A DNA stretch of 64,000 nucleotides from a virus. The first letter of the stretch is position 1; each line of letters starts with the position of its first letter. This document shows positions 9,133 through 26,997 of the stretch, one piece after another. The translations under genes and the position numbers were made by a program. Location: the IMG/VR virus record IMGVR_UViG_3300036715_002050, positions 73,416 to 137,415 of that record. The stretch is one strand, 5' to 3'. The notes beneath the pieces were generated by a model that had not been told where the DNA came from, did no database searches, and saw only the letters and a list, made by a program, of their open reading frames with translations.

Positions 9133-9980
9133 TGACCTACCCACGTAAGTTAACCAAAGAACGTGACTACGAAATCCGCAACCTTTTGACCGACCACACG
9201 CCCCAAGAGCTAGCGGAACTCCTGTACGACTTGGTGCGCAAGTCCCAAGTGTCCGAACGGACAATCCGTTGTACTGCAGTTCATAACGAGTACGAAGTCT
9301 GTACTACATGCGACTTGTTGTCCATCTTTTGCGAGGACTAAATGTTATCCAATATCGATTCCGTCCGTATCCAACAAGTCGCACCCACCTTTTACGACGC
9401 CCACTTTGCACTCAAGGACTTTATCGATTATCGCCGGACCATCGAACTTTTACACGTTAACCAAGTTTATGACGCTCTCATCGAAAAAGTCCATCACGAC
9501 CTTGCCCAATTACCCGAAGCTTCTATGGGTTTAGCTTTCCCACAGGAATTTTAACATGAGCCACCACGATAACTACCCTCCTTGCCGCAGCCACGAAATG
9601 ATTTTGCATACCACCCGCGACAGAATGATTTGCACCAGATGTGGCGTCCGCTTTGCAAGTGGGTGTCGGACACTTCCCCTGGGAGCAAAACGGATTCTGT
9701 ATAAGGGGTGTGGTGGGTAGGTCGGGTGCAGCGTACGTACCCCAACGCTTTCCCTAGGGACAAAAACCGATTGTTGGCGTGCGTTACGGGACCCAACGTA
9801 GCGGGTAAGTGGTTGATTTTACTAGAAACGGTTTGGGAAAATTTTAAAAAAGGGATTCCGCCCTAGGGAAAGCACCACCGGGTCCCATACCGGTGGTGCT
9901 TATTAAATTCGTTCCGGAATAAATGGGTGATTTTTATAGAGAATTAGGGTCGGATATATACACTTCACCCCGCGCCTGCC

Positions 9981-10400
9981 GGATGTAGGTGGATGTGGGA
10001 CAATGTAGGGAAATTCGTTAACGAAACCTACATGTGGGTACATTAGCCTACAGTGTGTGGGGATGTGGGGAAGTGTGGGAGAAAGTGGGATGGTGTGTGT
10101 GGATGTGGGAGAAAGTGGGATGATGTGGGATGATGTGGGTGGATGTGGGGAAGTGTGGGAGAAAGTGGGATGGTGTGTGTGGATGTGGGACTAGGTGGGG
10201 AGGTGTGGGTCAATGTGGGTGGAGGTGGCCAGCTGTAGGCCAATGTGGGCCACTGTGGTATAGTGTGGGTCAATGTGGGCTTATATGGGTCGCTGTGGGG
10301 TGCTGTGGGCCATTGTACGATAGGGTAAGAAATTACACACATGAACACACATAAACCCACACGTAGTCCTGGGACACACACGCACACACACGCGCCCACA
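9981..10400. repeat. 10-bp-period NNNTGTGGGN array with short inverted CCCAC/CACAC array
   Basis: About 27 consecutive degenerate units at 10051-10320; 50-bp direct repeat at 10061-10110 and 10141-10190; CA-rich inverted units at ~10335-10400. Confidence 0.9.
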
Positions 10401-10589
10401 TGTAAGATTTACACGCATTACAACCTACATTTACAACCTTTACTGTATAGCGCTGTGGAGCGCGCGGTATTATCCCCAATAGGTGATTACACGCGCTTGT
10501 GGACGAGGCCGAAGTGTGGTCTAGTGGTTTTGCCCCGGTGACGCATAGCGAATCCGGGGGCTGCAAAGGGAACTAAAGCGGCCTACCGC

Positions 10590-11024
10590 TTGACTCGCTC
10601 CCTGAAGTGTGGTTTAAGTAGTGAATCAGCCGCGACGTAGAGCGGCGCAGCAAGCCAGAGAGGGGTTAGGCGGGGTCTATCTCCGCGCGGTACCCTCGTG
10701 ACCCTTCGGGGCGGGATTGGTTGAAGTAGACGGGTTGACTTCCGGTTCAAAGTGTGGTTTAAGTAGTGAATCAGCCGCCGCGAAAGGGTCTAGCAAGGTT
10801 CTGCGGTTTCCCGATGGGTTTGACTTCTCTTACCGATTCTGTTACACCTTATGGGCCTTCGGGCTCTCTTGTAGGACCGCCTCATATAGGGGTGTGGCGA
10901 CACTGTAAAATGGGCTAGTCCGGCTGCAAGGTGCCCGATGTTCTAAGCGTATGGGGACGGATTAGCTACTGCGGTTCCACCTAAAAAGTGACCGCTTGAC
11001 CCTTCGGGTCGGATGTAGTAGGGT
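10590..11024 (+). promoter_or_regulatory. Four tandem sigma70-type early promoters
   Basis: TTGACT at 10590 and 10735 share AAGTGTGGTTTAAGTAGTGAATCAGCCGC; TTGACT-N17-TACACC at 10820; TTGACC-N17-TAGGGT at 10996. Confidence 0.7.
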
Positions 11025-11239
11025 GGTTGTGTAGGGCAGGGCTGATAGCTCTCAACAAGTAGCGCCTAGACTATAGGTGGGCTAGGTGTCTAATGAAAGC
11101 GGTTTCTCCAACCGTTATTTGGAGTGTGGGCGTAATAGTAGGCTAGGGGATTGCCTAGAGGTAGTGTGACTCGTGTGGGCGCTTTTGGATGCGACCTACT
11201 ATGAACGGGGCTACAGGTAAGGTTTCTCTAGTCGAAAAA

Positions 11240-11720
11240 CAGGCCACAAACGCGGGTTGCGCGACGTACCCTAAACGGCGCGGACAGACTGGCCCCACGG
11301 GCCCCCGGGTATGGGGAGCATACCGCAACGCCTGCTAGCACCCATAGCCTCTGCGTACGTCTGCAACCCTCTAAGGGGTTGTGGGCCCGGAAAGAGAGCC
11401 CCCTAGGCAAAACCCTAGGCAATACCTCGCGAGAGGGTTGGTCATATGGCCGTCAGGCTATCGTGCCAACAAACAGGAAGGCGCGGGCAGACAAAACGCG
11501 GGAGCCTGTCTAAATATGCGTAATGATTAGAGATTCCGTGAGAGTCGGGATCTGGTTGGCAGAGGCAAGCCGTGGTGACGGGAATTATTCGGTTGTAGGA
11601 ATAATGCTCGGAACGCGGTGCGCGCGCTGTCGGCTAGCTGTGATGGTCAATCCCGCGTGACTGGTGACACACCCGGACGGTTCATCGTTCGGTGGCTGGG
11701 TTCGATTCCCAGGCGGGACA
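11240..11720 (+). ncRNA. Large structured ncRNA candidate ending in a tRNA-like module
   Basis: No credible ORF; nested long-range helices and many hairpins; 3' module TCCCGC/GCGGGA plus CTGGG-TTCGATT-CCCAG. Confidence 0.6.
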
Positions 11721-11778
11721 TTGTTGTACAGGGTTTCTCCCTTTAACTACGGGCGGAAACGCCCGGCGGAGTTCTACC

Positions 11779-12381
11779 ATGGCTATCAAGCAAATCCGTA
11801 TCCCGACGCACAACGTTTGTGTGGTCAAGGTGTTGGGCGCTGGGGCTGGCAAGTCGCCGCGTACGTCCACGCGGTGCGCGGTGGTGCCGGACCCGTGCGA
11901 GTGGTTGCGGAAGGCGCACGCGGGCGACGTGGTGGACGCGGGGCAGCACGCCGCGCCTGGTGGCAAGGCTCGGGCGGAAGTCTACCGGGTGACGGTGCTG
12001 GACCCGGAAGCGGGGGATTTGCCGCCCAACGCGCCGAAGGCGTACCGGGATGCCTCCTTCAAGGCGGCTGCACGGTCTGCGGCACGCAAGGCTCGGGTGG
12101 CTGGGGCGATTGTTGCGCCCGTGCCGGTCGCGGCTGTCAAGCCCACGGTCACTGTTACCGTGGTGGTGGATGCGCCCAAGGCTTTCAAGGCGCCCCGTGT
12201 GTCCAAGGCTTTGTCGGGTGCCACACCCAAGGCTTTGCCTGCCGCCAAGGGTGAGCGTAACGAGCCCGTCGGTAAGACGGTTGACGTGTGCGTCCAGTGC
12301 AAGGCCCCGATTGGGTTGGACCATGAGGGCTCGCCCAAGGTTGGAATGGGTGGCGTCTGTTTCACGTGCGGCGAAAAGTAA
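11779..12381 (+). CDS. First early ORF, Ala/Lys/Pro-rich with C-terminal CxxC...CxxC
   Basis: GGAG RBS before ATG at 11779; biased codon usage. Confidence 0.6.
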   Translation: MAIKQIRIPTHNVCVVKVLGAGAGKSPRTSTRCAVVPDPCEWLRKAHAGDVVDAGQHAAPGGKARAEVYRVTVLDPEAGDLPPNAPKAYRDASFKAAARSAARKARVAGAIVAPVPVAAVKPTVTVTVVVDAPKAFKAPRVSKALSGATPKALPAAKGERNEPVGKTVDVCVQCKAPIGLDHEGSPKVGMGGVCFTCGEK

Positions 12382-12912
12382 CAGCTTGTGCAGGGATGGG
12401 CCGCACACTCTAACGGGTTGCGGCTCGATTTGTTGTTCCCTTAACAAAAGGAAAGCAAAATGTCCGTCGGGAATCCTTTTACGCGGCAGCTTGACACAAA
12501 GTTGTATGATGCGTCACAGCGGGTGGATTACATCCACGAAGACAAGTACGCTTCGCTTGGGGTTGCGGTGCTGGAAACGTGCCCGCTGGCTTTCTTGGCG
12601 CGGGAGGATCGTCCGCTGGATGCGGCACACTTGCCGGAAGCGTTGCGGCTGGATCAGGTCATGTCACGGCTGGCGTGGACCTGACACATGCGCAACAATC
12701 CTATCCGTAAGTGTGAAAAGTGTGGGAAACGTACATCAGCCCACATTCTTGTACCATCCGTCAACAAGTATGGCGACGATTCCAAGCGCGTCATGCACTG
12801 TTGCTTGAAGTGTCAAGCAGAAAAGCGGGATCTGGAAAAAGACCGCTGACGTACCGGCACGTTTCGCTTAACGGCGGGGCGTGCCAATTGTTTAACCAGC
12901 AAAGGATTTGTC

Positions 12913-13260
12913 ATGCAAAAGTTTCCCAGCATCAAAGCGGTCCGCAAGGCGTTGGTCAAAATCAACAAAGACGTGGCCGGTTCTGCAAAAGAGGATGACG
13001 TGGAAGTGCGTCTGCAGGTGTTGGAGTCCGGGTATTGGGCTGTCCGGTTTGGGTCGGCGGATTACGACCAAGACCACCGTGGGTTGTGGGGCAGCGGGTA
13101 CGTGCGCGGCGACCGGCGCAGGTTGAATTGCACGGACGTCGCCCGGGAGTTGCTTGACCAGTGCCGGGAGTCGTACGCGGAACAGCAAGCGTTCGCGGCT
13201 GCCGTGGCCCCGCAAGTGCGCGTCGACTTGGCTGCGCCGCGTTTCCCTGAAATTTGGTGA
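12913..13260 (+). CDS. Phage hypothetical protein
   Basis: AAGGA RBS; VRLQV...W....G..DYDQDHRG.WG motif. Confidence 0.6.
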   Translation: MQKFPSIKAVRKALVKINKDVAGSAKEDDVEVRLQVLESGYWAVRFGSADYDQDHRGLWGSGYVRGDRRRLNCTDVARELLDQCRESYAEQQAFAAAVAPQVRVDLAAPRFPEIW

Positions 13261-13611
13261 CGTTTGGTAAAAAGCTTTTACAGCTTTACTGCGGCGTGTT
13301 TCTTAACGGAAACACGCCCGCGTTCGTTGTGGCGGTTAACCCCGAACGCGGAGCATAACATGCATACGTTCTATGTGATTGCGATGTACTGCAGCATTCC
13401 GGCCCGTCCGATTGTGGTGCAGGCACGCAACGAAGTGCACGCGCTGCGCGTGGCAGAGCAGCGACGCGGTGCGGCATTCTTGGACCACGGGCTGGTGCTG
13501 GTGTTCGCTGCGCCCGTGTTGACGGCGACGAACAAGGGCAACGGCGTGATGGAGTTGTCCAAGTAACAAAGGCGCTTCCCTATCCACAAGGTAAGGAAGC
13601 GTGATCGTTGT

Positions 13612-13692
13612 GCCCGATTGGTGGAATGGTAGACACAGCAGACTCAAAATCTGCCGCCGCAAGGCATCCCGGTTCGAGTCCGGGATCGGGCA
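13612..13692 (+). tRNA. tRNA-Leu(CAA)
   Basis: GCCCGAT/ATCGGGC, GCAGA-CTCAAAA-TCTGC, long variable arm. Confidence 0.92.
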
Positions 13693-13735
13693 TTGTTGTT
13701 TGTTGTACGACTTTCCCACCCACAGGAGCAATACC

Positions 13736-13981
13736 ATGGCTTCACACAACATCGTTGCCACGTCGCTGTTCGATGAGATCGAGCCCAAGCGTCACGAGAT
13801 GACGCAGGCTGAGTACGACACGGGCGTGTCCGAAGGGTCGGGGATTTGCTTATCCTGCGGAAACATCGCAGACACGTGCGAGGAAGAGTCGACCGGGGAG
13901 GAGTGCGACACGTGCGGGGAGTACGACGTGGTCGCCTTCGAAACCGCGTTCGTGGACGACAAGATCGAGATCGAGGACTAA
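13736..13981 (+). CDS. Small very acidic zinc-ribbon protein
   Basis: AGGAG RBS; CLSCG...CEE...ECDTCGE; D/E rich. Confidence 0.6.
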   Translation: MASHNIVATSLFDEIEPKRHEMTQAEYDTGVSEGSGICLSCGNIADTCEEESTGEECDTCGEYDVVAFETAFVDDKIEIED

Positions 13982-14247
13982 AAAGCTTTGGGAAACGTAA
14001 CGCCGCCTTACATTCCTTAGCGGGGGTGTAGGGCATTCGTCGTGGAGGAAGCATGACGTGGTCGCAAGACGGTCCGTTGACGTGACGTAACTTTTTCTGA
14101 GAGCCCATCCAACGCACGAAAGGTGGATACAAATGCTGTTAAAAACGCGCTAGCCCGATCCGCGCGACCAAGTACGGGATAGGTTTGCTGGTTTTGCCTG
14201 ACGTGAGATTGTCGCTTAGACTTTACTCATGCCACAAACCGGCGCGC

Positions 14248-14320
14248 GGGATCTTGGTGAAACGGTTATCACCTCCGACTTTTAATCGGTACGTTGTGGG
14301 TTCGAATCCCACAGATCCCA
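14248..14320 (+). tRNA. tRNA-Lys(TTT)
   Basis: GGGATCT/AGATCCC, loop CTTTTAA. Confidence 0.9.
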
Positions 14321-14944
14321 TTTGTTGTGCCAAGTTTGTTGTATAACTTTCGCCAGGAGACGCACATGGCTGTGCAAACGTTGGACACACAAACGCGGGT
14401 CAACCGCGCGTTTGCGGGTGCCAAGGCCGATTGTAGCGGGTTGGCCGAAAACTGTTCTGCTACGTTGACCGAGTGGGCGATAAACAAGACGTGCGCCAAT
14501 TGGGAAGCGTACAAAGCCGCGTGTGCTGCCCACGACTCCGCTTACGCCGCGTCCATGCAAAAGTGGCGTCGTCGGTGGGGCTTGGAACCGTAACGCCGCA
14601 CGCAACACCGGGCACGCTTGCTCTAACGGGCGGCGTGCTCATCCTTTAACGGAGGCTGTATGATCAAGCTGAAAGGTTCGTCGGCAGACGTGGCGCAAAT
14701 CCAAGTCGCAACCCGCGTGCTGGCAGAAGCCACCACCACTTCCCCCTACCTGCGCAAGCCCCGCCGCAACATGCGGAACAAGGGTGTCACGTGCTCCTGC
14801 GGCAAGCCCGCGGCGTGCCGGGGCGCGTGCGGGGCGTGCTACTCCAAAGGGTACTTCGCGGCGTGGATCGCGTGTGGTGGCGTGAAGCCCGCGCCGAAGT
14901 AAGCAACACCAGCAATAAACGCACGTGCGGTCGCGTGCGTGTCC

Positions 14945-15016
14945 GGCGCCATAATTTAACGGCTAGAATGGAGGCTTTTCAATCCTCCGGTGTGGGTTCG
15001 ATTCCCACTGGCGTCA
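14945..15016 (+). tRNA. tRNA-Glu(TTC)
   Basis: GGCGCCA/TGGCGTC, loop TTTTCAA, T arm GTGGG-TTCGATT-CCCAC. Confidence 0.85.
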
Positions 15017-15607
15017 TTTGTTGTGCCAAGTTTGTTGTACGACTTTTACATAGGAGGCAGCATGCAAGCTTTGATTGCTGTGATGGTTTTCAAAAAGCTT
15101 ATCCGCTACCGTCCCGGTGGTTGGGACGACCGCTATTACGTGGCGTGCTGCCCGAATACGTTGGTGATGCGATGATTGACCAACATAACAGCGGCATAAT
15201 CCGGGTCAAACTCCTCGCCATCGTCGTCGTGGTTCAAGCTGTTTTGAGCCCAGCAAGCGTCACATTCCATTGCGGCGTATGCACCGAAGGAATACCGCTC
15301 GACAGCGGGCACCGGTTCGATGGTGTTGGTTCGCGCGCACTTGCGGCAAAAGTACCGGCCCATGCCGGTGAAAGCTTGGATAGCGATTATCCAACCAACT
15401 TTTGATCAGTGATTCTGTCAGCCGCACGGATCTTAACGGACACGTGCGGCTATCGTTTGCGTAAGGGCGTGGCCCGCAAAGTCACGTCCGTACGACGGTG
15501 TTTAAGGACAGCCGGTTGGGTTGATCACCCACAAATCAACAAAACAAGGCTTGGAGTTCAACTCTCCCGCAAACGATTTGTTGTACCACTTACACAGGGG
15601 TTCGCAC

Positions 15608-15961
15608 ATGGCTAACAAGACCACGTTGGAAGTGCTGGAAGAGGCCAAGGCTTTGTTGGCCAAGCCCGGGGTTTGGCAGCAGGGCTCCCGGGAGTATTTC
15701 GACAACGACGGCAAAGCCCACCACTGCGCCTTGGGTGCGCTGGACGAAGTAGTTGGCGGCTACACCCTGGCTGGCGACGACACCGAAGCGTTCTGGGCGC
15801 TGTACGAAGCCTTGCCCAAGCGACCGGAGAAGGCTTCGGTGGACATGTCGCCAGCCATGTGCATCGCACGGTTCAACGACCGGCAATCGTCCCGGGCGCC
15901 CGTGCTGAGGCTGTTCTCACGCGCCATCCGCCGCGTGAAGCTGGATAACACACCGCTGTAA
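15608..15961 (+). CDS. DUF6197-like family paralogue 1
   Basis: A..LL....W.QG...HCALGAL...FND....V..LF..AI. Confidence 0.7.
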   Translation: MANKTTLEVLEEAKALLAKPGVWQQGSREYFDNDGKAHHCALGALDEVVGGYTLAGDDTEAFWALYEALPKRPEKASVDMSPAMCIARFNDRQSSRAPVLRLFSRAIRRVKLDNTPL

Positions 15962-16003
15962 TTGAACGGGCGCTGTTCACTTAACGGTGACAGCGTCCAT
16001 TGC

Positions 16004-16074
16004 CGGAGCGTCGTCCAACGGCAGGACAGTGGACTTTGAATCCACGAATGAGAGTTCGATTCTCTCCGCTCCTA
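16004..16074 (+). tRNA. tRNA-Gln(TTG)
   Basis: GTGGA-CTTTGAA-TCCAC, D GTCC/GGAC, T arm GAGAG-TTCGATT-CTCTC. Confidence 0.88.
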
Positions 16075-16116
16075 TTTGTTACACAGCTTTTCACAGCTTT
16101 TCACAGGAGAGCGCAC

Positions 16117-16452
16117 ATGGCTCGGACGCGGCATTCGGTTTTGGTGGCGGCACGCAAGTTGATTGACACGCCGGAGAAGTGGTGCACGGTTTGGTACGCG
16201 AAAAACGCCAAAGGATATGGCGTGATGAACATGGACCGAACCGCCACCGCTTTTTGCGCGGTGGGTGCAATCCAGCGGGTCTTGAACGGTAATCGCCGCG
16301 CCACCGAACTGTATTTGGCGGACCTGCCCGCGTGGCGTGACTTGAACCGGTTTTTGAACTTTTTGAATGAGCAACCCGACACCACCCACGACGACGTGTT
16401 GCATGCGTTCGATGAACTCATCCGTGAATCGCGCCCGAAGTCGCACAAGTAA
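16117..16452 (+). CDS. DUF6197-like family paralogue 2
   Basis: ARKLI..PEKW....A....G...AFCAVGAI.R...NE.PDTTHDDVL.AFD. Confidence 0.75.
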   Translation: MARTRHSVLVAARKLIDTPEKWCTVWYAKNAKGYGVMNMDRTATAFCAVGAIQRVLNGNRRATELYLADLPAWRDLNRFLNFLNEQPDTTHDDVLHAFDELIRESRPKSHK

Positions 16453-16944
16453 CCGGCTGCGTGTGGGGTAAAAGCCCACGCAGTCATTTGTTACACAGCT
16501 TTTGCCCAGGAGGCACACATGCATTTCATTTACACGTGGGAGTTCGTTCGAGGCTTGAACGAGCGTATCACGCGCACCGTTTGCGCGTCGGTTGACAAGG
16601 ACGTAGCGTTGTTGGAAGAGGAAGTGGCTGCGGGGGTTTGGCGCACCATGGGCCCCGGCTGGGTGCCGGGCTTGATTGGGTGTGAGATCGCATGAAATAC
16701 GAAGTCCACGTGTATATCGGCGGCTGGTTGTTTACCCGCGCTTGCCGCACCTTCGAAAGCGCCGCGCAATGTGCTAAGGAAAGTTCTTTAGCGATGGCTG
16801 CGCATGCGATTGTGACAAATGACGGGGCGGCTGCGCAAGAGTGGCACAACGGTGTGTTGTTGAACTCTTTCGCTTAGTAGGGCTGCCGCATGTTCCTTAA
16901 CGGGTGCATGCGGTAATTATTGTGCCCCGAACAGGAGGTAACAA

Positions 16945-17241
16945 ATGGTGACGATCAACAAGAAAGTGATTGCCGACGCTTCGGCTTTGCTGCGCAAGGG
17001 CTGGTCCCAGGATGAGTACGCGCTGGACGCACAAGGCAACGAAGTCATTCCGTGCGCCGACGAAGCCGTGACGTTCTGTGCCATCGGCGCGCTGGCGCGG
17101 GTGCTGGACACAAGCGCGCTTGCCGTGGAAGAGGCGCTGTCGGACTGGGGGATTTCTTCCACCATCCTCATCGACACCAACGACTCGGCAGAGAACGTGG
17201 AAGAGGTGATCGAAGCGTTGGAAGAACTGCCCATCGAGTAA
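16945..17241 (+). CDS. DUF6197-like family paralogue 3
   Basis: LL.KGW.Q...A.D..G..V...A..FCAIGAL.R...ND....EEVI..L. Confidence 0.75.
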   Translation: MVTINKKVIADASALLRKGWSQDEYALDAQGNEVIPCADEAVTFCAIGALARVLDTSALAVEEALSDWGISSTILIDTNDSAENVEEVIEALEELPIE

Positions 17242-17312
17242 CACCGGGCACCGTTAGTGGCGAAAGCCAACGGTGCTCTTTGTTGGGTAGTTAACACGCA
17301 AAGGGGCTACAA

Positions 17313-17636
17313 ATGGGCTTGAAAAAGATCGTGACGGAGGCTCGCGCCTTGCTGGCCAAGGGGTGGTGCAAGGGCACTTTTGCTCGTGACATCAACGGCG
17401 AGTGTGTACACCATGGCTTTCCCAATGCTGTGGCCTTCTGTTCGCTGGGTGCTATCGCACGCGCCCAGGGTGACGCGAACTTCGGCAGGCGGGCGGGCCA
17501 GGTTCCACGCGAGTTTTACAGCGCGTTCGAAAAGGTGAGCGGCACACAAGACGTGGTGTGGTTCAATGACCACAAGTGCCGCTCGCAAGAGGAAATCGTG
17601 GACGTCTTCGACAAGGTCATTGCGCTAATCGACTGA
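17313..17636 (+). CDS. DUF6197-like family paralogue 4
   Basis: ARALL.KGWCKG..ARD..G..V...AVAFCSLGAI.R...WFND...R..EEI...FD..I. Confidence 0.75.
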   Translation: MGLKKIVTEARALLAKGWCKGTFARDINGECVHHGFPNAVAFCSLGAIARAQGDANFGRRAGQVPREFYSAFEKVSGTQDVVWFNDHKCRSQEEIVDVFDKVIALID

Positions 17637-17659
17637 CCTACACGTTGGAAAAGCTTACC

Positions 17660-17708
17660 ACGTCGGGCACGTTGACGCAAGTGCATGGGTTCAAATCCCT
17701 CCCGGCGT
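17660..17708 (+). ncRNA. D-armless tRNA-like minihelix
   Basis: ACGTCGGG/CCCGGCGT stem, GCAC..GTGC hairpin, GGG-TTCAAAT-CCC T arm. Confidence 0.5.
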
Positions 17709-17814
17709 TTTGTAGCAACACCCCTTGCATTCGGTTTGGGGCTGTGCTACGGTCTTTTCACACAGAGCAAGCGTGTCTCTGGTTGTATTCCCCCCACACG
17801 CGCAGGGTGTTCAC

Positions 17815-18972
17815 ATGGCTGACGCCATTGTCTCCGTTGTTCCCGCAGAGTTGTCCCACATCGAGCCCGTGGCGCTGCAGAAGTTGCAAGCCAAGGGGCT
17901 CACCCTGTCCGAGATCCTGGGCATCTTCCCGGCACCCGCCGTGCAGCCCGTGGTCGCCCGGCAGGGCAAGAAGCGCACCAACGTGCCCACGGACTTCGCC
18001 GGGTCCAAGGTGCCGTGGCACAAGGTCGGCAACCCGCTGCCCGAGCGCATCCCCCACGAGATGCTGACGTCCTTCCTGCCGCGCGTCATGGCGTCGGCTG
18101 GGCTGGACTGGGAGCCGTACAAGGCCCAGTCGTACTTCCGCGACGAACGCGCGTCCCAGTACGTGCTGGACAGCGAGTCCTTCAAGGTCATCCGCGACAC
18201 GCCCACCGGCCCGGTCATCCTCGCCAACCACGTGGGCAACGACTACCGCGTGATCAAGAACGCGGACACCGTCGCCTTCCTCTTCGCGGTGTCCGAAGGC
18301 ATCGGCACCATGGAGACGCTGGGCTACTTCGGTGACGGGCAGCAGGTCTTCGGGTGCCTGCGGCTGGGCGACCAGCAACTCATCAACGGGGACAAGATCC
18401 ACCCGTACGTGGTGTTCCGCAACAGCCACGACTCGTCGTGTGAGTTCGAGGCATGGCGGTCCACCATCCGCCCGGAGTGCGGCAACATGCTCCAGGCGTC
18501 CCGGTCGCGCGCCACCAAGGAAGTAGGCATGGTGCGCGTGCGCCATGAGGGCGACACCAACATCAAGATCGAGGACGCCCAGAAGGCGCTCAAGATTCTG
18601 GTGGAGAACTCGCTCAACGACGTGCGCCGCTTCGATGAACTCCTGCTCAAGGACTTCTCCATCAAGCAGATGGAGGAGTACGCCGTGTCCCTGTTCCCCG
18701 GTGACGGCACCGCGACCAAGGACCGGCGCGCGGATCTGTCCATGCTGTTCCTGCATGGCACCGGTCACGACAAGCTGGGCCAGAACGCCTACGCAGCTCT
18801 GCAGTCGGTCACGCAGTACATCGACCACGGTGGGCGCCGTGTCAACGCCCTCAAGGGTGACACCGTCCGCGCACAGAACTCGCGCCAGGCCGAGTCGCTC
18901 ATGCTGGGCAAGGGCGCCCAGATGAAGACGTACGCCTTTAACACCATCTGTGACATGGTGGGCGTGCTGTAA
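17815..18972 (+). CDS. DUF932/DUF945 phage/plasmid-like protein
   Basis: VPWH..G...AGLDW...VGNDY.VI.N...ETLG....G..VF...NSHD.S....TIRP.C.N.L...VRH.G...AYAALQSVT.Y.DH. Confidence 0.85.
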   Translation: MADAIVSVVPAELSHIEPVALQKLQAKGLTLSEILGIFPAPAVQPVVARQGKKRTNVPTDFAGSKVPWHKVGNPLPERIPHEMLTSFLPRVMASAGLDWEPYKAQSYFRDERASQYVLDSESFKVIRDTPTGPVILANHVGNDYRVIKNADTVAFLFAVSEGIGTMETLGYFGDGQQVFGCLRLGDQQLINGDKIHPYVVFRNSHDSSCEFEAWRSTIRPECGNMLQASRSRATKEVGMVRVRHEGDTNIKIEDAQKALKILVENSLNDVRRFDELLLKDFSIKQMEEYAVSLFPGDGTATKDRRADLSMLFLHGTGHDKLGQNAYAALQSVTQYIDHGGRRVNALKGDTVRAQNSRQAESLMLGKGAQMKTYAFNTICDMVGVL

Positions 18973-19469
18973 GTTGTTTGCCAAGCATTACCGGACACGT
19001 GTGGTGTTGTTGACCTTTCCGCCCAAAGCGGCACGTGTTCTTTGTTGTGCAACAAACTTACAAAGGAGTTCGCAAATGCGTATCGCGCAAATGCGTATCG
19101 CGCAAAGCGCCTTGAACAGGATGTTGGTGTTGGGATAACAGCCGTTCGAATCGGCACATAGGCGTTGTTGTTAGCTGTTAACCCGTTGCACTTACAAGGT
19201 CGAAAGACCGCAAAAGGTGGTTGCCAATGGTTGCCAAGAAGAATACCCGTAACACGATGTTCAAGCGCACGGATGCAGAGAACCGGGCGGCGATGCGCAA
19301 CGGTAACACGGTGGCGGAGGTGCTGGCGGCGCTGGACGCGCGGGGCTTGACAGCGACCAAGGAGCGTGCGAAGCTGCAGGCATTGGTGGCGAAGGCGGTG
19401 GCCAAGGGGCTCACGGGCACGGCAACCATCGGGGAGATCCGGGCCGCGCTGGCCCGCCACAAGTAAGCT

Positions 19470-20200
19470 GGGTGTTGTGTAACAAAGCGTGAGCAGCAAA
19501 GTTGCTGGGCTTGTTGTCGAAGCCGGATTCATAATCCACCAGCAACATCAGTCGAAACGTCCAGTTGCGTGAAAAACATAACGGGATTAAGTAGTTAAAA
19601 GGATTAACTCCGTTATGAACTAACTGGGATCGTTGAACGTGGAAGCTGTCCGAGGTGGTTGCAACAAAGCGTGCTGGATTAGAAGAACTCCTGCGGGACT
19701 TCTTGGCGCTTAAGGCATTCACGTGCTAGACACCACCGTCAACGTAATCGTGGGGAACGTTGCCGTACTGCGGTTGGTTATGCTGACCGTAAACCCTTCG
19801 CCCGACGCTTGGACTATGATTGTATCGGGCGCTTTGCATGTAGCTAAAGTCCGACAGCTTTAGCCAGCAAGGTACGGACCGGGCTGAGATTCCCGGTAAT
19901 GTGTTGGACCACGGGAATCCGTGTAATGGAGTGACAATGCCGCCTCCGACGTAAAGCGCTTGAAAGAACGTTTGCGGAAGTACCTTGCTCGGGTAGAGCG
20001 CGTTCTTTCTTTGACCCGGCGCTAACAGTAAAATCGGGCACCACTTGCTTGCTTAATGCCGACACGTTGCGGTACGCTGCGCCTGTACGGAAATAGTTTT
20101 GGTCATGGAGCAGGCCCTTCTACAAAGGAAAAACGCCATGAAGTGACTATAAAGTTGCAAGCAAGGAAAAGTAGTTTGAATAAGTACCGGCCTTGCAAAA
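19470..20200 (+). ncRNA. Large (~730 nt) highly structured ncRNA candidate
   Basis: No credible ORF; more than 10 hairpins, perfect 9-10-bp long-range helices and a pseudoknot; abuts tRNA-Leu. Confidence 0.65.
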
Positions 20201-20207
20201 GGCCCAC

Positions 20208-20289
20208 GCCCGTGTGGTGGAATAGGTAGACACACAAGACTCAAAATCTTGCGTCCTCGGACATGGGGGTTCGATTCCCTCCACGGGCA
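20208..20289 (+). tRNA. tRNA-Leu(CAA), second copy
   Basis: GCCCGTG/CACGGGC, CAAGA-CTCAAAA-TCTTG, long variable arm. Confidence 0.92.
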
Positions 20290-20639
20290 TTTGTTGTACC
20301 CGCAAAAATTACCCACAGGAGACGCACATGAAAGTCGTACAGAAGCAAATCCCCGGAAGCGTCGGCAAGAGAATCGAAGAGTTCAAAGACGGAGACGTTA
20401 TCCGGCACGCGAACAAAGTGCTCACCCAAACCCCCATTCTCAAGAGTTCCCGGACCGAAATGGGCGTGCACCAGCACTTCGGGGTGTGGCTGGATGACGG
20501 GCTGCTGTTTTCTGTCGCGACAATAACGGCGTATCGCTTCGTGCCGGTGATGGGCTCGTTTGTGGAAGAGTAACCCAATCCTTCCCGAAAATTTCAAGGT
20601 GGCGACCAAGTAGAGCCGGGAGGCTGGAACCGCCCGTGT

Positions 20640-20711
20640 GAAGGAAGCTCTTGGAGAGCAAGGGTCAGCGCACAACACCCCTTAGTGATGGTTCGATTCC
20701 ATCCTTCTTTC
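20640..20711 (+). ncRNA. tRNA-like RNA with mini D arm and enlarged anticodon loop
   Basis: GAAGGAAG/CTTCTTTC, CTCT-TGG-AGAG, AAGGG..CCCTT, GATGG-TTCGATT-CCATC. Confidence 0.6.
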
Positions 20712-20747
20712 TTTGTTGTGCAAACAACCCTAGCAACGGAGCCGTCA

Positions 20748-21413
20748 ATGGGTAAGGTGTTGTCGTGGTCAGTCAATAACAAGAAGCTGGCTGGTTTGAA
20801 GACCCACAAGACCATCGGGTTTTCAATCCCAGCACACCAAAACTTCACGGACTCGGCGGGGGCGGTGCAAAACACCTGCCCTAGGGCGGGTGCGTGTGCT
20901 GGTGTGTGCTATGCCAAGCAAGGATTCTTCCTCATGCCCAACGTACGCGACGCCATGGTCAACAACTTGGAGTTGGTGCAATCGCCGCAGTTCGTGGCGG
21001 TGGCTACGTACGACTTGGAAAAGTACAAGCGATTGGGTTACAAAGTCGTGCGTGTGCATACTTCGGGCGACTTCTTCTCTCAAAGCTACTTGGAAGCGTG
21101 GTACGAGATCGCCCGCGCCCATCCTGACTTGCTGTTCTACGCCTACACCAAGCAATTCGCCAAGTTGGATCTGTGGACCACCAAGCCGGGAAACTTCCGG
21201 ATCACGCAATCGGTGGGCGGCAAGGACGATTCCAAGATCGACTTGACCAAGTCTCACGCGCGGATCTTTGCGTCACACTACGCGCGTCGCAAGGCTGGGT
21301 ACGGCAACGGAACCGACTCGGATTTGCTGGTGATTCGTGGCACCACCAAGGTCGGGCTGGTGTACCACGGCAACCGCAACCTGACCGCATCCCAAAAGAA
21401 ATACTTCAAGTAA
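20748..21413 (+). CDS. Phage GP88-like protein (Cys-cluster, radical-SAM-like fold)
   Basis: TCPRAGACAGVCYAKQG...VRVHTSGDFFS..Y..AW..IA...P...FYAYTK. Confidence 0.8.
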   Translation: MGKVLSWSVNNKKLAGLKTHKTIGFSIPAHQNFTDSAGAVQNTCPRAGACAGVCYAKQGFFLMPNVRDAMVNNLELVQSPQFVAVATYDLEKYKRLGYKVVRVHTSGDFFSQSYLEAWYEIARAHPDLLFYAYTKQFAKLDLWTTKPGNFRITQSVGGKDDSKIDLTKSHARIFASHYARRKAGYGNGTDSDLLVIRGTTKVGLVYHGNRNLTASQKKYFK

Positions 21414-21514
21414 ATTATTAACACACCTTACACCCAAGCCAAGCGCCACCGGGCGTCGTCTTCAATGACACTTGGCTTATTGCAGTAAAAGTAGCACAAC
21501 AAAGGAGTACGCAC

Positions 21515-21913
21515 ATGGCTGACAAGAAGATCGTGAACACGCCGTCAGAGTTCTTGGAAACGGTCAAGCAGTTGTTGCTCACAAAGGGGTGGAACAAGGG
21601 GGCCTTCGCGGTCAATGCTGCAGGATTGGAGGTCAACGAGTGCTCCGACCTCGCCGCGCGCTTTTGCTTGCTCGGCGCAATGTCCCGCACGTTCGAAGAC
21701 ATGGACCCCACGGTGAGACATGCGCGGGGTCGTGTCTTGGAGCGGGACGCACAGGTCGCCTTGATGAAAGAGGTCCAAGACATGGGTGCCGCGGGCATCG
21801 CGGAATTCAACGACGACCCAGACACGGACTTGGAAGAAGTCGTGCAAGTGCTCGACCGAGTCATCAACAAGTTGGAACTGCAAGAAGCCAACTTCCAAAT
21901 CACCGACTATTAA
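21515..21913 (+). CDS. DUF6197-like family paralogue 5
   Basis: LLL.KGW.KGA.A....G..V...A.RFCLLGA..R...FNDDPDT..EEV..VLDR.I. Confidence 0.75.
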   Translation: MADKKIVNTPSEFLETVKQLLLTKGWNKGAFAVNAAGLEVNECSDLAARFCLLGAMSRTFEDMDPTVRHARGRVLERDAQVALMKEVQDMGAAGIAEFNDDPDTDLEEVVQVLDRVINKLELQEANFQITDY

Positions 21914-22641
21914 AGCAACGAAAAACCAAGTCCGGCGCGTAACGGCGTGCGTCTTCGATGACACCGGACTTCTCCGCGTAGCGTCGTGTGCTACGCACTT
22001 ATCACATAGGGGGCTATATGACTTTGGCTGACAAAGTAAACAAGAAATTGGACGAACTAGACGCAGCTTTTGATCAAGCAAAAGCAGAATTTCTCCAACC
22101 TTTAGTTGAGCAAGAGTTTGCCCGAGTACAAAAGAAAAACAGGCACATTACGGGCATTTACTTCGGAAATGGTACGTGGCTGTTAGATGTAGACGAAAGC
22201 ATATCGGATGACGACCGATTCCGTCTGTCAGGCAGCTTTTTGCTACGCTCCATACTCTAAAGTGACTAGTGCTCCCAAGTATATGCATCAGTTGATTCTG
22301 TTGTGTGACTTGGCTTGTCAATACTGCGAAAACGTAGGCACTGCGAAAGGTAAATAACAAATGGCTTATAGATCAGTTCTTCCGGAAGACTTGGTGGGTA
22401 AGACTGTCAAGTCGATCAATGCTGAAGCCGTAAACAGCTTGGAGATCACGTTCGAAGATGGGACTAAAGTGACGTTGTGGGCTGAACAGTCCATCTACAC
22501 GCTGTTCGGCAGCATCCCCGGCATTTTTGTTGACGACACCGGCCCAGTGTGATACATCTACACCAACCACGTGGCTGTCGTACGAGCCCAGCCCTTCAAC
22601 CGGCACGTGGTTATTTGTTGTAACTTACACCGGAGGTACAC

Positions 22642-23061
22642 ATGCCCCACGTGCAAAAAGAAATCGTCCCCGGTACGCCCGTACGTGTGTACCGCAACTT
22701 GCACCAGCGTTGTTGGTCGGTGCAAACGTATGTGCGCGGTAAGGGGTGGCGGTTGGCTCGCCACGAATCCGCCCTGTTCATCACCGACGTGACTTACCAC
22801 GTCAACGAACGCATCCGTCAACAGGTCATCGCTAACCGCCACAAAGACATCCACGCTTTTGTGTGCGGCAAGTGGTTGACGGGCGGATCGGGCAATAGCT
22901 TGGATGCATTGGTGGGCCATGCGCGCACGGGACCACGCAACGTGACTTACAACCCCTACAAAGCCGGGCACTTTATGTTTGATGATGGTCCCGCTACGCC
23001 GTTGGCTTGCGCTTGGTTCGCCAACTTGGTTATCGGTTACACAACGTTTGACTTGACGTAA
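22642..23061 (+). CDS. Conserved phage hypothetical protein (YRNLH..CWSV family)
   Basis: VRVYRNLH..CWSV...K.IHAFV.G...VTYNPYK..HF. Confidence 0.7.
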   Translation: MPHVQKEIVPGTPVRVYRNLHQRCWSVQTYVRGKGWRLARHESALFITDVTYHVNERIRQQVIANRHKDIHAFVCGKWLTGGSGNSLDALVGHARTGPRNVTYNPYKAGHFMFDDGPATPLACAWFANLVIGYTTFDLT

Positions 23062-24882
23062 GGAGCTTAACAATGGGTGTCATCGAAGCTTTGTGGACGA
23101 AAGAAGTGACCCGCCGTTTGCGGGAATTTCCCGGCGAGAACGTGATTGATCCCACCCACTACCACAAGACGGTGGATATCACGTTCGGGGCAATCTTTCT
23201 GCATGACTCCGCCATCCGTACGTTGGTTACGGTGGTTTGTGGCTCCGGGTTTACCGTGTCCACAGACGACACCGGAGCCATGGGTAAGCTGAAACTACGC
23301 ATCGAAAACATCGCTCTGCCACCCGAGTCCTACATGCCTTCCGTGTCCGAGCAAGCTTTTGCCATCCTGCACGAGACGTGCGGGGCGCTGGTGGCAGAGC
23401 GCCAAATGATGAACAGCAACACGATGCGGGTGTACTTCAAGGAGAAGTTGTCCATCGACTTGCTGGGCGGCCTCGCAGACAAGTTGGGCAGTCCACGGAG
23501 CTTGGTGGATATCTGCCCCACCAACGAAGCTGGTCCGTGTGTGTACTTCAACCGAATCAATCCCGGCAGCTAACGCAAACCGGCTACACGTGGGGTAAAA
23601 GCCCGCGTAGTCTTCGTCGTACCATTAACAAAGGAGCCCCAAAATGTCTGCACGTAATCCCAATCCCTTTACCGTAGAAAAACCAACCGACATTCCTGAT
23701 GGCGCATATGTCATCATGCGTCCAGAAACCTATTCCACAGATGGCGGTTATCCTGAAGATAGGTGTCATTCTTACGGCTATTGCGGCATCACGGTTTACC
23801 CGGACAAGACTTCGTGGGAAGCCGCTTTGAAGCGAGACGTAGAAAGCAAGCGGGATCCGGTAGGGTTTGTGATGCGTCGAGCGACGACCAGCATCACAGT
23901 GACCGTAAGGGTCGACGTATCGGTTTGATGTTACTCTAACCAAGGACACACACATGGCACGGACTTTGCAGCAAGCTTTGACCGCTTTTGCGGTGGACAA
24001 CCCGGTGTACGGAGTCCGGTCGTACATCGGGCGGGGAATGGGTAGCCGGGAATGCGTTGGGCTGGACACCGACGACGTCATCGGCGCTATCGGTGAGTTC
24101 GGCGCGTGGCTGATTGACACGCAAGTCGACAACGCAGCGGACATCATGCGGCAAGTGGCGGAGGCCCGCTCGGCCTCCATGGGGCTGGGCTACATCTTGT
24201 ACTGGCCGCGCGTCGAGTGGGTGGTGCCGGTGCAACCCGTGCCTTCAGGCTGTGACAATCCGGACTGTACGGGATGCAACTGCGGGGAACCGCAGAGCGT
24301 CCCCATGCCCTCCATGATCCCGGGGCACAGTTGCGGTGACTGTGAAGACGGGTCTTGCGGCATCGGGCGTTGGTGAGACTTGACTGAACCACAGGAACGC
24401 GCTACAGTGCTTGGCGTGGCTGTAGCGCGTTCCTGCGGCTTGGTGTGGTCTTCCCCCACAACAGGAGCTAGCATGCGTTTGACGGCGTTGGAGACGGCGA
24501 TTACGGCGGTTTGGCAGGGTCGTGGCGGTGGGATGGTCCGTATCAAAGGTATCAAGGGTATCAAGCGTTAGCCTCGTACCGCACAAGTAGTCCACTCTTA
24601 CCCAGGAATACCACCATGACGGTAGGCAAGCACCAAAGCGAAGTAGAGTCCGCGTTGTCCTTGGACCACATGCAAACATATGATCTGTTGGCGACCCGAC
24701 GCGACCAGTGGTTGATGCTGGCAAAAGACACGGTCACGTTTTCGCCAGAAAACGCCCACGCCTGCGTCACCAACGCCAACGTGTTGTCCATGATCATGGA
24801 CGAGTTGCAGGACCGTTGGGATGCAGACAAGATGGACCGCACACACGTCGCAAAGTAACACCCACGCACAAAGGAAAACAAC

Positions 24883-25293
24883 ATGTCCCGAGTTTACAAG
24901 AATGACGCCGACCGTGAACTGGCCGTAGCACTCCGCAAGGCCAAGAAGTTGCTGTTGACGCCAGGCAAGTGGTCCAAGGGCGCGTTGGCCCGAAACGCCG
25001 AGGGCGAGCCGCTCAATGGTGTGGCGGGGATCCGTGGTGACAATGCCGCTTCATTTTGCGCCGTTGGCGCAGTGATTCGTTGTGGTGGCAAACGTTCGAT
25101 GAACATCTTGGACGCGGCGGTGTTCTCATACACACGCAACAACGAAAACTACGCGTCTCCTACCGACGACATCATGGCGTTCAACGACGGCATGATCTCG
25201 TCACCCGAAGAACTCATGCCGGTGTTTGACATCGCGCTGGATCTGTTGCGCGCAAAGCCCACCAGCCGATCTTCCACCAAGTCCACCAAGTAA
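24883..25293 (+). CDS. DUF6197-like family paralogue 6
   Basis: AKKLL..PGKW.KGA.ARN..G...A.SFCAVGA..R...FND.....EE...VFD.AL. Confidence 0.75.
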   Translation: MSRVYKNDADRELAVALRKAKKLLLTPGKWSKGALARNAEGEPLNGVAGIRGDNAASFCAVGAVIRCGGKRSMNILDAAVFSYTRNNENYASPTDDIMAFNDGMISSPEELMPVFDIALDLLRAKPTSRSSTKSTK

Positions 25294-26788: not shown

Positions 26789-26902
26789 CGCGCGATAGTG
26801 TTCGGGGAGACATAAGGTGTGCGCACACTGGAGTCATCTTTACCCCTCAATGGTAGCACACTCCCGGGAGGGAGTAGAATGGGTTCGATTCCCTTTCGCG
26901 GC
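26789..26902 (+). ncRNA. tRNA-like RNA with D-loop hairpin insert and GNRA tetraloop replacing the anticodon loop
   Basis: GCGCGA/TCGCG, TA-GTGT...CAATGGTA-GCAC split by GGGG...CCCC hairpin, ACTCCC-GGGA-GGGAGT, T loop TTCGATT. Confidence 0.6.
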
Positions 26903-26914
26903 TTTTTGTAGCAC

Positions 26915-26985: not shown

Positions 26986-26997
26986 TTGTTGTAATGC

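What the first reader, a model, noticed from the sequence alone, without database searches (positions are those of the whole stretch)
11030..11720. Large multibranched ncRNA at the head of the early transcript, ending in a tRNA mimic
Seen: nested helices GGCCA(11242)/TGGTC(~11644), ACAG-CTGGCC(11284)/GGCTAG-CTGT(11632), ACCGC/GCGGT and GCCTCTGC(11347)/GCAGAGGC(11559) enclose many hairpins (GCAACCCT..GGGGTTGT, CCTAGG..CCTAGG, AGATTCC..GGGATCT). These are followed by a tRNA-like module at 11651-11719. It lies directly after the promoter at 10996. Known: giant ornate RNAs (GOLLD, ROOL) are phage- and tRNA-associated. Family assignment is not possible by eye.
Basis: partly seen in the sequence, partly recalled or inferred. 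Interest (0 to 1): 0.75.

Follow-up and report, generated by a model that had tools for sequence, protein, structure and literature searches.

The report
Phage early leader ending in tRNA mimic
A long gene-free stretch at the head of a phage's early genes holds a cluster of RNA hairpins and ends in a tRNA look-alike that probably serves as a cutting signal, but no relatives exist to test whether it is one large functional RNA.

Summary
The window is the right part of a 137-kb metagenomic phage contig, distantly related to Myxococcus phage Mx1 (DnaE 44.6% identical).

**What is confirmed**
- 11650-11720 is a real 71-nt tRNA-like element. It has a 6-of-7-pair acceptor stem, a canonical T arm, an aberrant D arm, and a 7-bp stem with a 6-nt loop where the anticodon arm should be.
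- It is followed by TTGTTGT, as are 7 of 9 T-arm elements in the early block. I therefore read it as the first of a series of tRNA or tRNA-mimic units placed before early genes.
- Upstream lies the genome's only internal ORF-free gap of 400 nt or more (10567-11663).

**What is only partly supported**
- Only 11340-11572 folds better than shuffles (z -4.0, 0 of 200). The effect is specific to the + strand.
- The 5' half does not fold better than shuffles (z -1.05).
- The long-range nested helices are not robust to the choice of fold boundaries.

**What could not be tested**
- Rfam gives no family.
- I found no homologue at useful divergence anywhere, so covariation is untestable.

**Verdict**
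The region is most likely a hairpin-rich leader of the early operon plus a tRNA-like processing signal. The claim of a single large ornate ncRNA is unproven.

The parts
10996..11024 (+). Promoter-like site: TTGACC (10996-11001), 17 nt, TAGGGT (11019-11024). This is the putative start of the leader, unverified.
   Evidence: Read. Not called by the consensus scan. The -35 overlaps hairpin GACCC/GGGUC 10998-11010, which belongs to a three-copy motif (D4/D8).
11030..11339 (+). 5' part of the ORF-free leader. It contains a GTGTGG..TAATAGTAG copy of the upstream promoter-like motif at 11122-11140 and several CTAG palindromes.
   Evidence: z -1.05, 15 of 100 shuffles as good. Motif found (m1). CTAG count.
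11340..11572 (+). Hairpin cluster: eight near-abutting hairpins, closed in some folds by GCCUCUGC/GCAGAGGC. It includes a GNRA-capped stem, CCUC-GCGA-GAGG.
   Evidence: + strand: -97.8 kcal/mol, z -4.01, 0 of 200. - strand: -81.2, z -1.79, 9 of 200. Helix probabilities.
11569..11619 (+). Long irregular hairpin (GCCGU..CGGG..UUAUUC / GAAUAA..CUCG..GCGGU), stable in all three fold contexts.
   Evidence: The arms 11579-82/11607-10 and 11585-90/11599-604 have p 1.0 in 3 of 3 contexts.
11650..11720 (+). 71-nt tRNA-like element. Acceptor AUCCCGC/GCGGGAC (A.C mismatch plus 6 pairs). D arm GUG-ACUGGUGA-CAC with no 8-9 linker. A 7-bp stem CCGGACG/CGUUCGG with the 6-nt loop GUUCAU. T arm CUGGG-UUCGAUU-CCCAG. 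Discriminator A. No encoded CCA.
   Evidence: Not called by default ARAGORN or by Rfam at gathering score. Best Rfam hit is tRNA-Sec at 18.4 bits against a cut-off of 47.
11721..11727 (+). TTGTTGT motif directly after the discriminator base, shared with genuine tRNAs of the early block.
   Evidence: 7 of 9 T-arm elements in window 11000-27100 are followed by it.
11750..11765 (+). GNRA-capped hairpin CGGGCG-GAAA-CGCCCG in the short 5' UTR, just before the SD sequence GGAG (11768-11771).
   Evidence: p 0.97 in the 10900-11800 fold. Sequence.
11779..12381 (+). First early ORF (P0001, 200 aa, C-terminal CxxC..CxxC). It is an orphan.
   Evidence: The only matches are itself and two 99-100% identical variants.

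Best explanation
The finding is a composite, not one ornate RNA.

(a) 11030-11649 is the untranslated leader of the rightward early operon of a tRNA-rich, Mx1-like phage. It lies downstream of a non-coding control region: a 10-bp-phased GTGGG array followed by tandem promoter-like units. Its 3' half (11340-11620) carries a dense cluster of stable hairpins specific to the + strand.

(b) 11650-11720 is a tRNA-like minihelix with an intact acceptor and T arm and degenerate D and anticodon arms. It is the first of a series of tRNA or tRNA-mimic elements that sit in front of early genes, each followed by (T)TTGTTGT, an SD sequence and ATG.

Inferred mechanism: host RNase P cuts at 11649/11650. A 3' tRNA-processing activity, of RNase Z type because no CCA is encoded, cuts after A11720. 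This would detach the leader from the mRNA of the first gene, which would then begin at UUGUUGU.

Shown: the anatomy, the strand bias, the repeated layout and the absence of coding signal.

Inferred: transcription, the cleavages, and any function of the hairpin cluster (stability, protein binding or antitermination).
For: - ORF-free: 10567-11663 is the only internal gap of 400 nt or more without an ORF of 70 aa or a tRNA in the 137-kb contig. Mx1 has none and G001 has two, of 445 and 557 nt. 0 of 10 short ORFs hit PHROGs or Pfam.
- Strand-specific folding: whole region z -3.66 on + and -1.87 on -. Core z -4.01 (0 of 200) on + and -1.79 (9 of 200) on -.
- tRNA-like element: cloverleaf-like minimum-energy fold, with a 6-of-7-pair acceptor at the tRNA-typical distance.
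- A T-arm pattern scan gave 41 hits in the contig, 33 inside ARAGORN tRNAs and 8 outside. This element is one of the 8. My own estimate of the chance expectation is about 1 hit.
- 7 of 9 T-arm elements in window 11000-27100 are followed directly by TTGTTGT. The spacing to an SD and ATG is 35-58 nt in 7 of 8 cassettes measured, with one at 119 nt.
- None of the tRNAs shown is followed by CCA.
- In near-identical strains from three sequencing runs, all 9 listed differences (7 substitutions, 2 single-base deletions) lie outside 11030-11720. This is weak support, because run X2 does not cover 11082-11224.
Against: - No transcript data: no listed run is on record as RNA.
- No homologue, so there is no covariation to test.
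- z values near -4 are not unique. 9 of 280 windows of 150 nt between 8001 and 21951 reach z<=-3.5. A coding window reaches -5.04.
- The 5' half is unstructured by this measure.
- TTGTTGT could be a promoter or a UTR element rather than a processing context. In that case the mimic need not be a punctuation signal.
- The strong CTAG enrichment and the GTGTGG motifs could mean that the stretch acts as DNA.
- A tested idea failed: pairing of the 20 nt before the mimic with the start-codon region is not better than shuffles (z -1.17, 12.7% as good).
Confidence: 0.5

Rival explanations
1. It is a stand-alone large structured ncRNA of about 600-700 nt, a new family with a cellular or anti-host function. 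Its 3' end would be made by RNase P cleavage at the attached tRNA mimic, analogous to MALAT1-mascRNA (that analogy is recalled, not from a call).
For: - + strand-specific folding signal.
- Eight almost linker-free hairpins, including a GNRA-capped one.
- Exceptional length of the ORF-free stretch for this genome.
- No variants inside it in three sequencing runs.
- Weak Rfam similarity of the mimic to mascRNA-menRNA (16 bits against a gathering score of 42.5), which is noise-level.
Against: - Global helices change with the fold boundaries.
- The 5' half has z -1.05.
- No family match.
- No counterpart in Mx1, G001 or G002.
- The mimic has the same downstream layout as ordinary tRNAs, so it need not belong to the upstream RNA.
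- The second long non-coding stretch before a tRNA (19467-20207) shows no + strand signal (z -1.21).
Confidence: 0.2
2. It is mainly a DNA-level control region, with operators or binding sites for a phage or host protein, or part of an origin or packaging region. The RNA hairpins would be incidental, and the tRNA-like element a decaying tRNA gene without function.
For: - CTAG is about 8-fold enriched: 9 in 11030-11650 against 1.76 per kb genome-wide. The six densest 600-nt windows of the contig all start between window 10586 and 11086.
- GTGTGG-type motifs tie 11122 and 11174 to the upstream promoter-like 29-mers and to the 10-bp-phased array at 9980-10330.
- This phage has other degenerate tRNA-like elements.
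Against: - Folding is clearly better on the + strand than on the - strand, which a pure DNA function does not predict.
- Stable tetraloop caps (GCGA, GAAA, UUCG-type) point to selection at the RNA level.
- The mimic keeps a perfect T arm and acceptor and the TTGTTGT context, which a decaying pseudogene would be expected to lose.
Confidence: 0.2
3. The 71-nt element is a working but unorthodox tRNA. For example, UCA in the loop GUUCAU could read UGA or shift frames, alongside the phage's CUA-anticodon tRNA at 1411-1481.
For: - Intact acceptor and T arm and GG in the D loop.
- The loop contains U-UCA-U.
- The best Rfam clan hit is tRNA-Sec.
- ARAGORN calls a CUA-anticodon tRNA in the same window.
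Against: - A 6-nt loop on a 7-bp stem, no 8-9 linker and a 3-bp D stem.
- 18.4 bits against a cut-off of 47.
- Default ARAGORN does not call it.
- Relaxed ARAGORN returns only models with mismatched acceptor stems.
- The large ORFs of the contig are intact under table 11.
Confidence: 0.05
4. It is a diverged member of a known family (tmRNA, RNase P RNA, group I or II intron, GOLLD, ROOL, HEARO and the like) that falls below detection.
For: ARAGORN at -ps80 reports two 'permuted tmRNA' candidates in window 10788-11429 and 10852-11269. ARAGORN at -ps70 reports a tRNA with a 572-nt intron spanning 11059-11720.
Against: - These appear only at thresholds where spurious calls abound.
- The tag peptides are atypical, and the intron model has mismatched acceptor and D stems.
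- cmscan with permissive filters at E<=10 lists none of these families on 10600-12000.
Confidence: 0.03

Closest known systems
tRNA punctuation and tRNA-like 't-elements' of mitochondrial transcripts. The t-element paper PMC1920247 was seen only as a listing and the start of its abstract. The punctuation model is recalled.
   Same: tRNAs or tRNA-like structures sit between cistrons of a polycistronic transcript. They are thought to define mRNA ends through tRNA-processing nucleases. Here tRNAs and mimics precede early genes with a fixed downstream layout.
   Different: This is a bacteriophage, not an organelle. Cleavage is not shown. Each unit carries an extra conserved TTGTTGT motif. Only some units are mimics.
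MALAT1-mascRNA / MEN-beta 3'-end formation (recalled). Rfam family mascRNA-menRNA.
   Same: A long non-coding RNA is followed directly by a tRNA-like element that lacks a normal anticodon arm. RNase P cleavage at that element would create the 3' end of the upstream RNA.
   Different: That system is eukaryotic and nuclear. The Rfam score here is 16.0 bits against a gathering score of 42.5, so this is not a member. There is no evidence that the upstream RNA is stable. Here an mRNA follows downstream.
Phage T7 early region: tandem strong promoters, a leader, and RNase III hairpins between early cistrons (recalled).
   Same: Several promoter-like units in tandem, about 145 nt apart. They are followed by an untranslated leader and by structured elements before each early gene.
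   Different: The structured elements here are tRNAs or tRNA mimics, not RNase III hairpins. The leader is far longer, about 650-1100 nt. The promoters are unverified.
GOLLD / ROOL large ornate RNAs
   Same: Several hundred nucleotides long, in a phage, next to tRNA genes.
   Different: No match to any Rfam model at gathering score or at E<=10. There is no conserved multi-domain architecture that could be tested. Only about 230 nt fold significantly.

Membership tests
GOLLD / ROOL / HEARO / OLE-type large ncRNAs (Rfam models) | Match to the family covariance model | tested here: not met
   cmscan of the whole window at gathering score gave 14 matches, all tRNA. cmscan of 10600-12000 at E<=10 gave 3 matches, none to these families.
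tmRNA | tRNA-like domain formed by the 5' and 3' ends, plus a tag reading frame, detected by ARAGORN or Rfam | tested here: not met
   Default ARAGORN finds no tmRNA. Rfam finds none. Only -ps80 gives two permuted candidates with atypical tags. The acceptor stem of the mimic closes locally (11650-56 with 11713-19), not across the large RNA.
RNase P RNA; group I and group II introns | Match to the family covariance model | tested here: not met
   No match at E<=10.
Canonical tRNA (Rfam tRNA model, ARAGORN) | Cloverleaf with a 7-nt anticodon loop and a score above threshold | tested here: not met
   Not among the 14 Rfam or 15 ARAGORN calls. It has a 6-nt loop on a 7-bp stem and a 3-bp D stem without a linker.
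tRNA-like processing element (t-element or mascRNA kind) | Intact acceptor and T-arm minihelix with a canonical T loop | tested here: met
   UCCCGC/GCGGGA has p 0.95 and CUGGG-UUCGAUU-CCCAG has p 0.98. It is the minimum-energy fold of the isolated 71-mer.
tRNA-like processing element (t-element or mascRNA kind) | Sits at a cistron boundary in the same layout as genuine tRNAs | tested here: met
   TTGTTGT follows directly after the discriminator in 7 of 9 T-arm elements of window 11000-27100, this one included. An SD and ATG follow.
tRNA-like processing element (t-element or mascRNA kind) | Cleaved by RNase P at the 5' end and by RNase Z or another enzyme at the 3' end, in vivo or in vitro | not testable with these tools
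   No RNA run is listed. Contigs cannot show RNA ends.
Structured ncRNA in general | Covariation supporting the helices in homologues | not testable with these tools
   Only near-identical strains were found, with no variant inside 11030-11720. No homologue in the phage collection, viral contigs, metagenome contigs or the three distant relatives.

The most novel reading that the evidence does not exclude
A bacteriophage makes a stable, highly structured non-coding RNA of about 600 nt at the very start of infection. Its 3' end is generated by RNase P cutting at an attached tRNA mimic. This would be a prokaryotic counterpart of MALAT1-mascRNA biogenesis. The mimic and its siblings would form a phage-wide tRNA-punctuation system for early mRNAs.
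Probability: 0.15. Interest if true: 0.7.

Novelty: new variant of a known kind. Interest (0 to 1): 0.4.

Why it matters
If the processing is real, this phage uses the host's tRNA-maturation enzymes to cut its early polycistronic transcripts. It would do so with both working tRNAs and anticodon-less mimics. That layout is known from organelles and from one class of eukaryotic lncRNAs. My four literature searches listed no paper describing it for phage early operons. This rests on titles and abstract starts only, not on an exhaustive check.

It would also give a second reason why large phages carry many tRNA genes. The hairpin-rich leader is the longest ORF-free stretch of a gene-dense genome, so something there is probably under selection. 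What that is remains open.

Tried and rejected
**Known families.** Rfam at gathering score and at E<=10 gave nothing beyond noise-level tRNA-clan hits. The same holds for the second non-coding stretch.

**ARAGORN.** Default settings do not call the element. Relaxed settings give only poor models.

**Homologue hunting.**
- blastn of 10900-11800 against phages: no match.
- Exact 25-mer of the T arm and acceptor in viral contigs: 0 matches.
- Flanking proteins in viral contigs: no relatives.
- P0001 in the 5.8-billion-cluster protein search: only itself.
- Cluster look-up: two variants 99-100% identical, on contigs of about 2.7 kb.
- The aaRS-like neighbour: best relative 49% identical.
- DnaE: 23-27% in viral contigs with a single-protein query. 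Mx1 at 44.6%. With an alignment query, L172 and L173 at 43% and 42%.
- nhmmer and blastn of the region against Mx1: only T-arm-sized matches, E 0.7-5.
- DNA search in Mx1, G001 and G002: one 15-nt match, E 0.63.
- Cassette pattern in viral contigs: 57 loci, all single matches, none related.
- Cassette pattern in metagenome contigs: 89 loci, all single matches, none related.
- P0001 alignment in metagenome contigs: none.

**Sequencing runs.** Three DNA holders are listed and no RNA holder. Laying them gave near-identical contigs. A part without cover (X2, 11082-11224) says nothing.

**Other tests.**
- Paralogue in the same contig: only self.
- Recent copy of one of the phage's 36 tRNAs: no, the similarity is confined to the T arm.
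- Ro/Y-RNA idea, prompted by the TROVE gene of Mx1: no TROVE match in this contig, which is 85% complete.
- Coding under TAG read-through: only frames with 4-9 TAG codons open up.
- SD-led small ORFs: none convincing.
- Pairing of the pre-mimic strand with the start codon: not significant.
- GC skew as a marker of an origin: it follows gene direction and is uninformative.
- GGA (CsrA-type) motif enrichment: 12 observed against 10.4 expected.
- The second long non-coding stretch 19467-20207 as an analogue: + strand z -1.21 and - strand z -2.61, so it is not analogous.

**Not tried.** I did not build a covariance model. With a single sequence and only relatives at about 43% protein identity, I judged it uninformative.

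Full report
**Context.** The window is bases 73416-137415 of a 137,415-base linear viral record, estimated 85% complete.
- It carries 36 ARAGORN tRNAs, 15 of them in the window.
- Its DnaE-type polymerase is 44.6% identical over 91% of its length to that of Myxococcus phage Mx1. The next phage hits are at or below 29%.
- Two IMG/VR records, G001 (169,962 bases, terminal repeats) and G002, are equally distant at 43% and 42%.
- The Mx1 announcement (PMC10720576, passages read) gives 169,621 bp, 55.5% GC and 22 annotated tRNAs.
- So the phage belongs to a thinly sampled, tRNA-rich group. Its host is not known.

**The observation.** Sequence was read.
- The stretch is non-coding. With a lenient rule (any ORF of 70 aa or more in six frames, or a tRNA, counts as covered), window 10567-11663 (1,097 nt) is the only internal uncovered gap of 400 nt or more in the contig. 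Mx1 has none and G001 has two, of 445 and 557 nt.
- None of the 10 short ORFs tested hits PHROGs or Pfam at E<=0.1. No SD-led ORF is convincing. TAG read-through only opens frames holding 4-9 TAG codons.
- The helix GCCUCUGC/GCAGAGGC is predicted (p 0.94) only when exactly 11030-11725 is folded. In the 10900-11800 fold, 11554-62 pairs with 11627-35 instead. So it holds in 1 of 3 contexts.
- The three outer nested helices are supported in 0 of 3 contexts.

**Is it more structured than chance?**

| Segment | Strand | Energy (kcal/mol) | z | Shuffles as good |
|---|---|---|---|---|
| 11030-11725 (696 nt) | + | -283.4 | -3.66 | 0 of 20 |
| 11030-11725 | - | -230.5 | -1.87 | 1 of 20 |
| 11340-11572 (core) | + | -97.8 | -4.01 | 0 of 200 |
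| 11340-11572 | - | -81.2 | -1.79 | 9 of 200 |
| 11037-11340 (5' half) | + | -114.0 | -1.05 | 15 of 100 |

- The signal sits in 11340-11572, while the 5' half shows none.
- The strand asymmetry argues for selection at the RNA level, in the direction of the flanking genes.
- The signal is not unique. Among 112 windows of 233 nt taken every 300 nt from base 1, the mean z is -0.66 with sd 1.31. Four reach -3 or lower. The window at 11401 is second (-3.99). The first (-5.04, at 8701) lies in a protein-coding gene.
- With 150-nt windows, 9 of 280 between 8001 and 21951 reach -3.5 or lower.

**The tRNA mimic.** 11650-11720 folds on its own into a cloverleaf-like minimum-energy structure.
- The acceptor stem has an A.C mismatch followed by 6 pairs.
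- The T arm is perfect: CUGGG-UUCGAUU-CCCAG.
- The D hairpin has 3 pairs, GG in its loop and no 8-9 linker.
- A 7-bp stem capped by the 6-nt loop GUUCAU replaces the anticodon arm.
- Default ARAGORN does not call it, and neither does Rfam at gathering score. The best permissive hit is tRNA-Sec at 18.4 bits against a cut-off of 47.
- It is not a recent copy of any of the 36 tRNAs.

**The lead from earlier notes, tested here.** Notes by first-stage readers on this genome suggested that early genes are punctuated by tRNAs and mimics, each followed by TTGTTG.
- A T-arm pattern scan gives 41 hits in the contig. 33 lie inside ARAGORN tRNAs and 8 do not, and the present element is one of the 8.
- Four of those 8, this one included, have a matching acceptor stem of 6 or 7 pairs at a distance that gives 70-72 nt.
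- In window 11000-27100, 7 of 9 T-arm elements are followed directly after the discriminator by (T)TTGTTGT. These are 11696, 13668, 14296, 14992, 20265, 20687 and 26961. The two without it are 16050 and 27043.
- An SD and ATG follow 35-58 nt after the element in 7 of 8 cassettes measured. The eighth is at 119 nt.
- TTGTTGT occurs 80 times on both strands, against about 16 expected from base composition.
- None of the tRNAs shown is followed by CCA.
- The mimic therefore sits in the same slot as working tRNAs. This moved my reading from '3' domain of a giant RNA' to 'first punctuation unit of the early operon'.

**Surroundings.** Upstream lie, in order:
- A strong hairpin at 9870-9901.
- About 33 copies of a 10-bp-phased nnnnGTGGG unit at 9980-10330, followed by a CACAC-rich inverse segment.
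- Tandem units about 145 nt apart that carry TTGAC.., a 29-mer repeated exactly at 10605 and 10750, and UUCG-type hairpins at 10694, 10847 and 10992.
So the 5' end of any transcript is uncertain: about 10625, 10770, 11031 or 11145.
- CTAG is enriched about 8-fold, and the densest windows of the whole contig are all here. Many CTAGs lie in predicted helix arms, but they could also be DNA operators.

**Known families.** Rfam lists no GOLLD, ROOL, HEARO, RNase P, tmRNA, intron, ribozyme, riboswitch or CRISPR-repeat match at E<=10. The tmRNA and intron-tRNA calls from relaxed ARAGORN are unconvincing.

**Homologues.** None was found at useful divergence.
- The downstream gene product is an orphan.
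- Its only relatives are 99-100% identical.
- Three DNA sequencing runs hold near-identical sequence. All 9 listed differences fall outside 11030-11720. That is at most a weak hint of constraint, because coverage in one run is incomplete.
- Mx1, G001 and G002 share no nucleotide similarity with the region.
- Pattern scans for the tRNA+TTGTTGT cassette gave only single, unrelated hits in viral contigs (57 loci) and metagenome contigs (89 loci).
- Covariation therefore cannot be tested, and no RNA run is listed.

**Mechanism.**
- Most likely (0.5): the stretch is the untranslated leader of the early operon. Its 3' half is a cluster of stable hairpins, and a tRNA-like minihelix closes it. RNase P and a 3' tRNA-processing nuclease recognise the minihelix and so separate the leader from the first mRNA. 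That RNase Z handles CCA-less precursors is recalled, not from a call.
- Rivals: a genuine stand-alone ncRNA of about 600 nt matured at the mimic (0.2); a DNA-level control region with incidental hairpins and a decaying tRNA (0.2); an odd but working tRNA (0.05); a diverged known family (0.03).

**Comparison with known systems.** It works most like mitochondrial tRNA punctuation and plant mitochondrial t-elements, like MALAT1-mascRNA 3'-end formation, and like the T7 early region with tRNA-type elements in place of RNase III hairpins. It is a member of none. The mascRNA model scores 16.0 bits against a gathering score of 42.5.

In Mx1, 11 of 43 T-arm hits lie outside ARAGORN tRNAs. A different motif, GATCAACGC(A)GTA, follows several tRNAs there and also precedes several start codons. 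So a tRNA-motif-gene layout may be shared by the group with different motifs. I did not test this further.

**Verdict.** The tRNA mimic and the non-coding, + strand-biased hairpin cluster are real. The single large multibranched RNA and any GOLLD/ROOL kinship are unsupported and cannot be tested with present data. The more interesting and better supported point is the cassette layout. I score it as a new variant of a known kind, with interest 0.4.

Noticed in passing
window 9980-10330 (and 10335-10400): About 33 copies of a 10-bp-phased nnnnGTGGG unit with GC skew up to +0.63, followed by a CACAC-rich inverse segment. It looks like an iteron, packaging or protein-coating array. The GTGTGG core recurs in the promoter-like units downstream.
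   Followed up: partly
window 10511, 10605-10633, 10750-10778, 10889, 11122: Tandem promoter-like units about 93-230 nt apart. An exact 29-mer is repeated at 10605 and 10750. UUCG-type hairpins occur at 10694, 10847 and 10992. The motif occurs nowhere else in the contig.
   Followed up: partly
window about 10586-11686: CTAG is about 8-fold enriched, mostly as G[CG]CTAG[GA]. The densest 600-nt windows of the whole 137-kb contig all lie here. Unexplained.
   Followed up: partly
window 20642-20712 (+), about 56963-57034 (-), 2365-2381 and 2772-2788 (T arms); genome 70196 and 70613: Further T-arm-bearing elements that ARAGORN does not call as tRNAs. Several have matching 7-bp acceptor stems at 70-72 nt. 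The one at 20642 is also followed by TTTGTTGT.
   Followed up: partly
window 19467-20207: A second long stretch without a credible gene, directly before tRNA-Leu (20208). Its + strand folding is not better than shuffles (z -1.21). The - strand gives z -2.61. Rfam finds nothing there.
   Followed up: partly
window 1411-1481: ARAGORN calls a tRNA with the anticodon CUA (amber-reading, labelled 'Pyl'). The large ORFs of the contig are nevertheless intact under table 11.
   Followed up: no
window 8701-8933: The strongest folding z-score of the 233-nt scan (-5.04) lies inside the class-II aaRS-like gene 8494-9132.
   Followed up: no
window 41970-44222 and 45172-47685: Two neighbouring paralogous proteins of 750 and 837 aa match the same PHROG, annotated as terminase large subunit. 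By tblastn they match helicase-annotated phage genes.
   Followed up: no
Mx1 record OR576727.2 (L022/L023): 44627, 45208, 46998, 50110, 52147, 53953, 56369: T-arm elements lying outside ARAGORN tRNAs (11 of 43 hits in the whole record). The one at 56369 lies just upstream of the TROVE (Ro60-like) gene 56915-58564, where a Y-RNA-like tRNA mimic might be expected. ARAGORN finds 37 tRNAs against 22 stated in the announcement. The motif GATCAACGC(A)GTA follows several tRNAs and precedes several ATGs.
   Followed up: no
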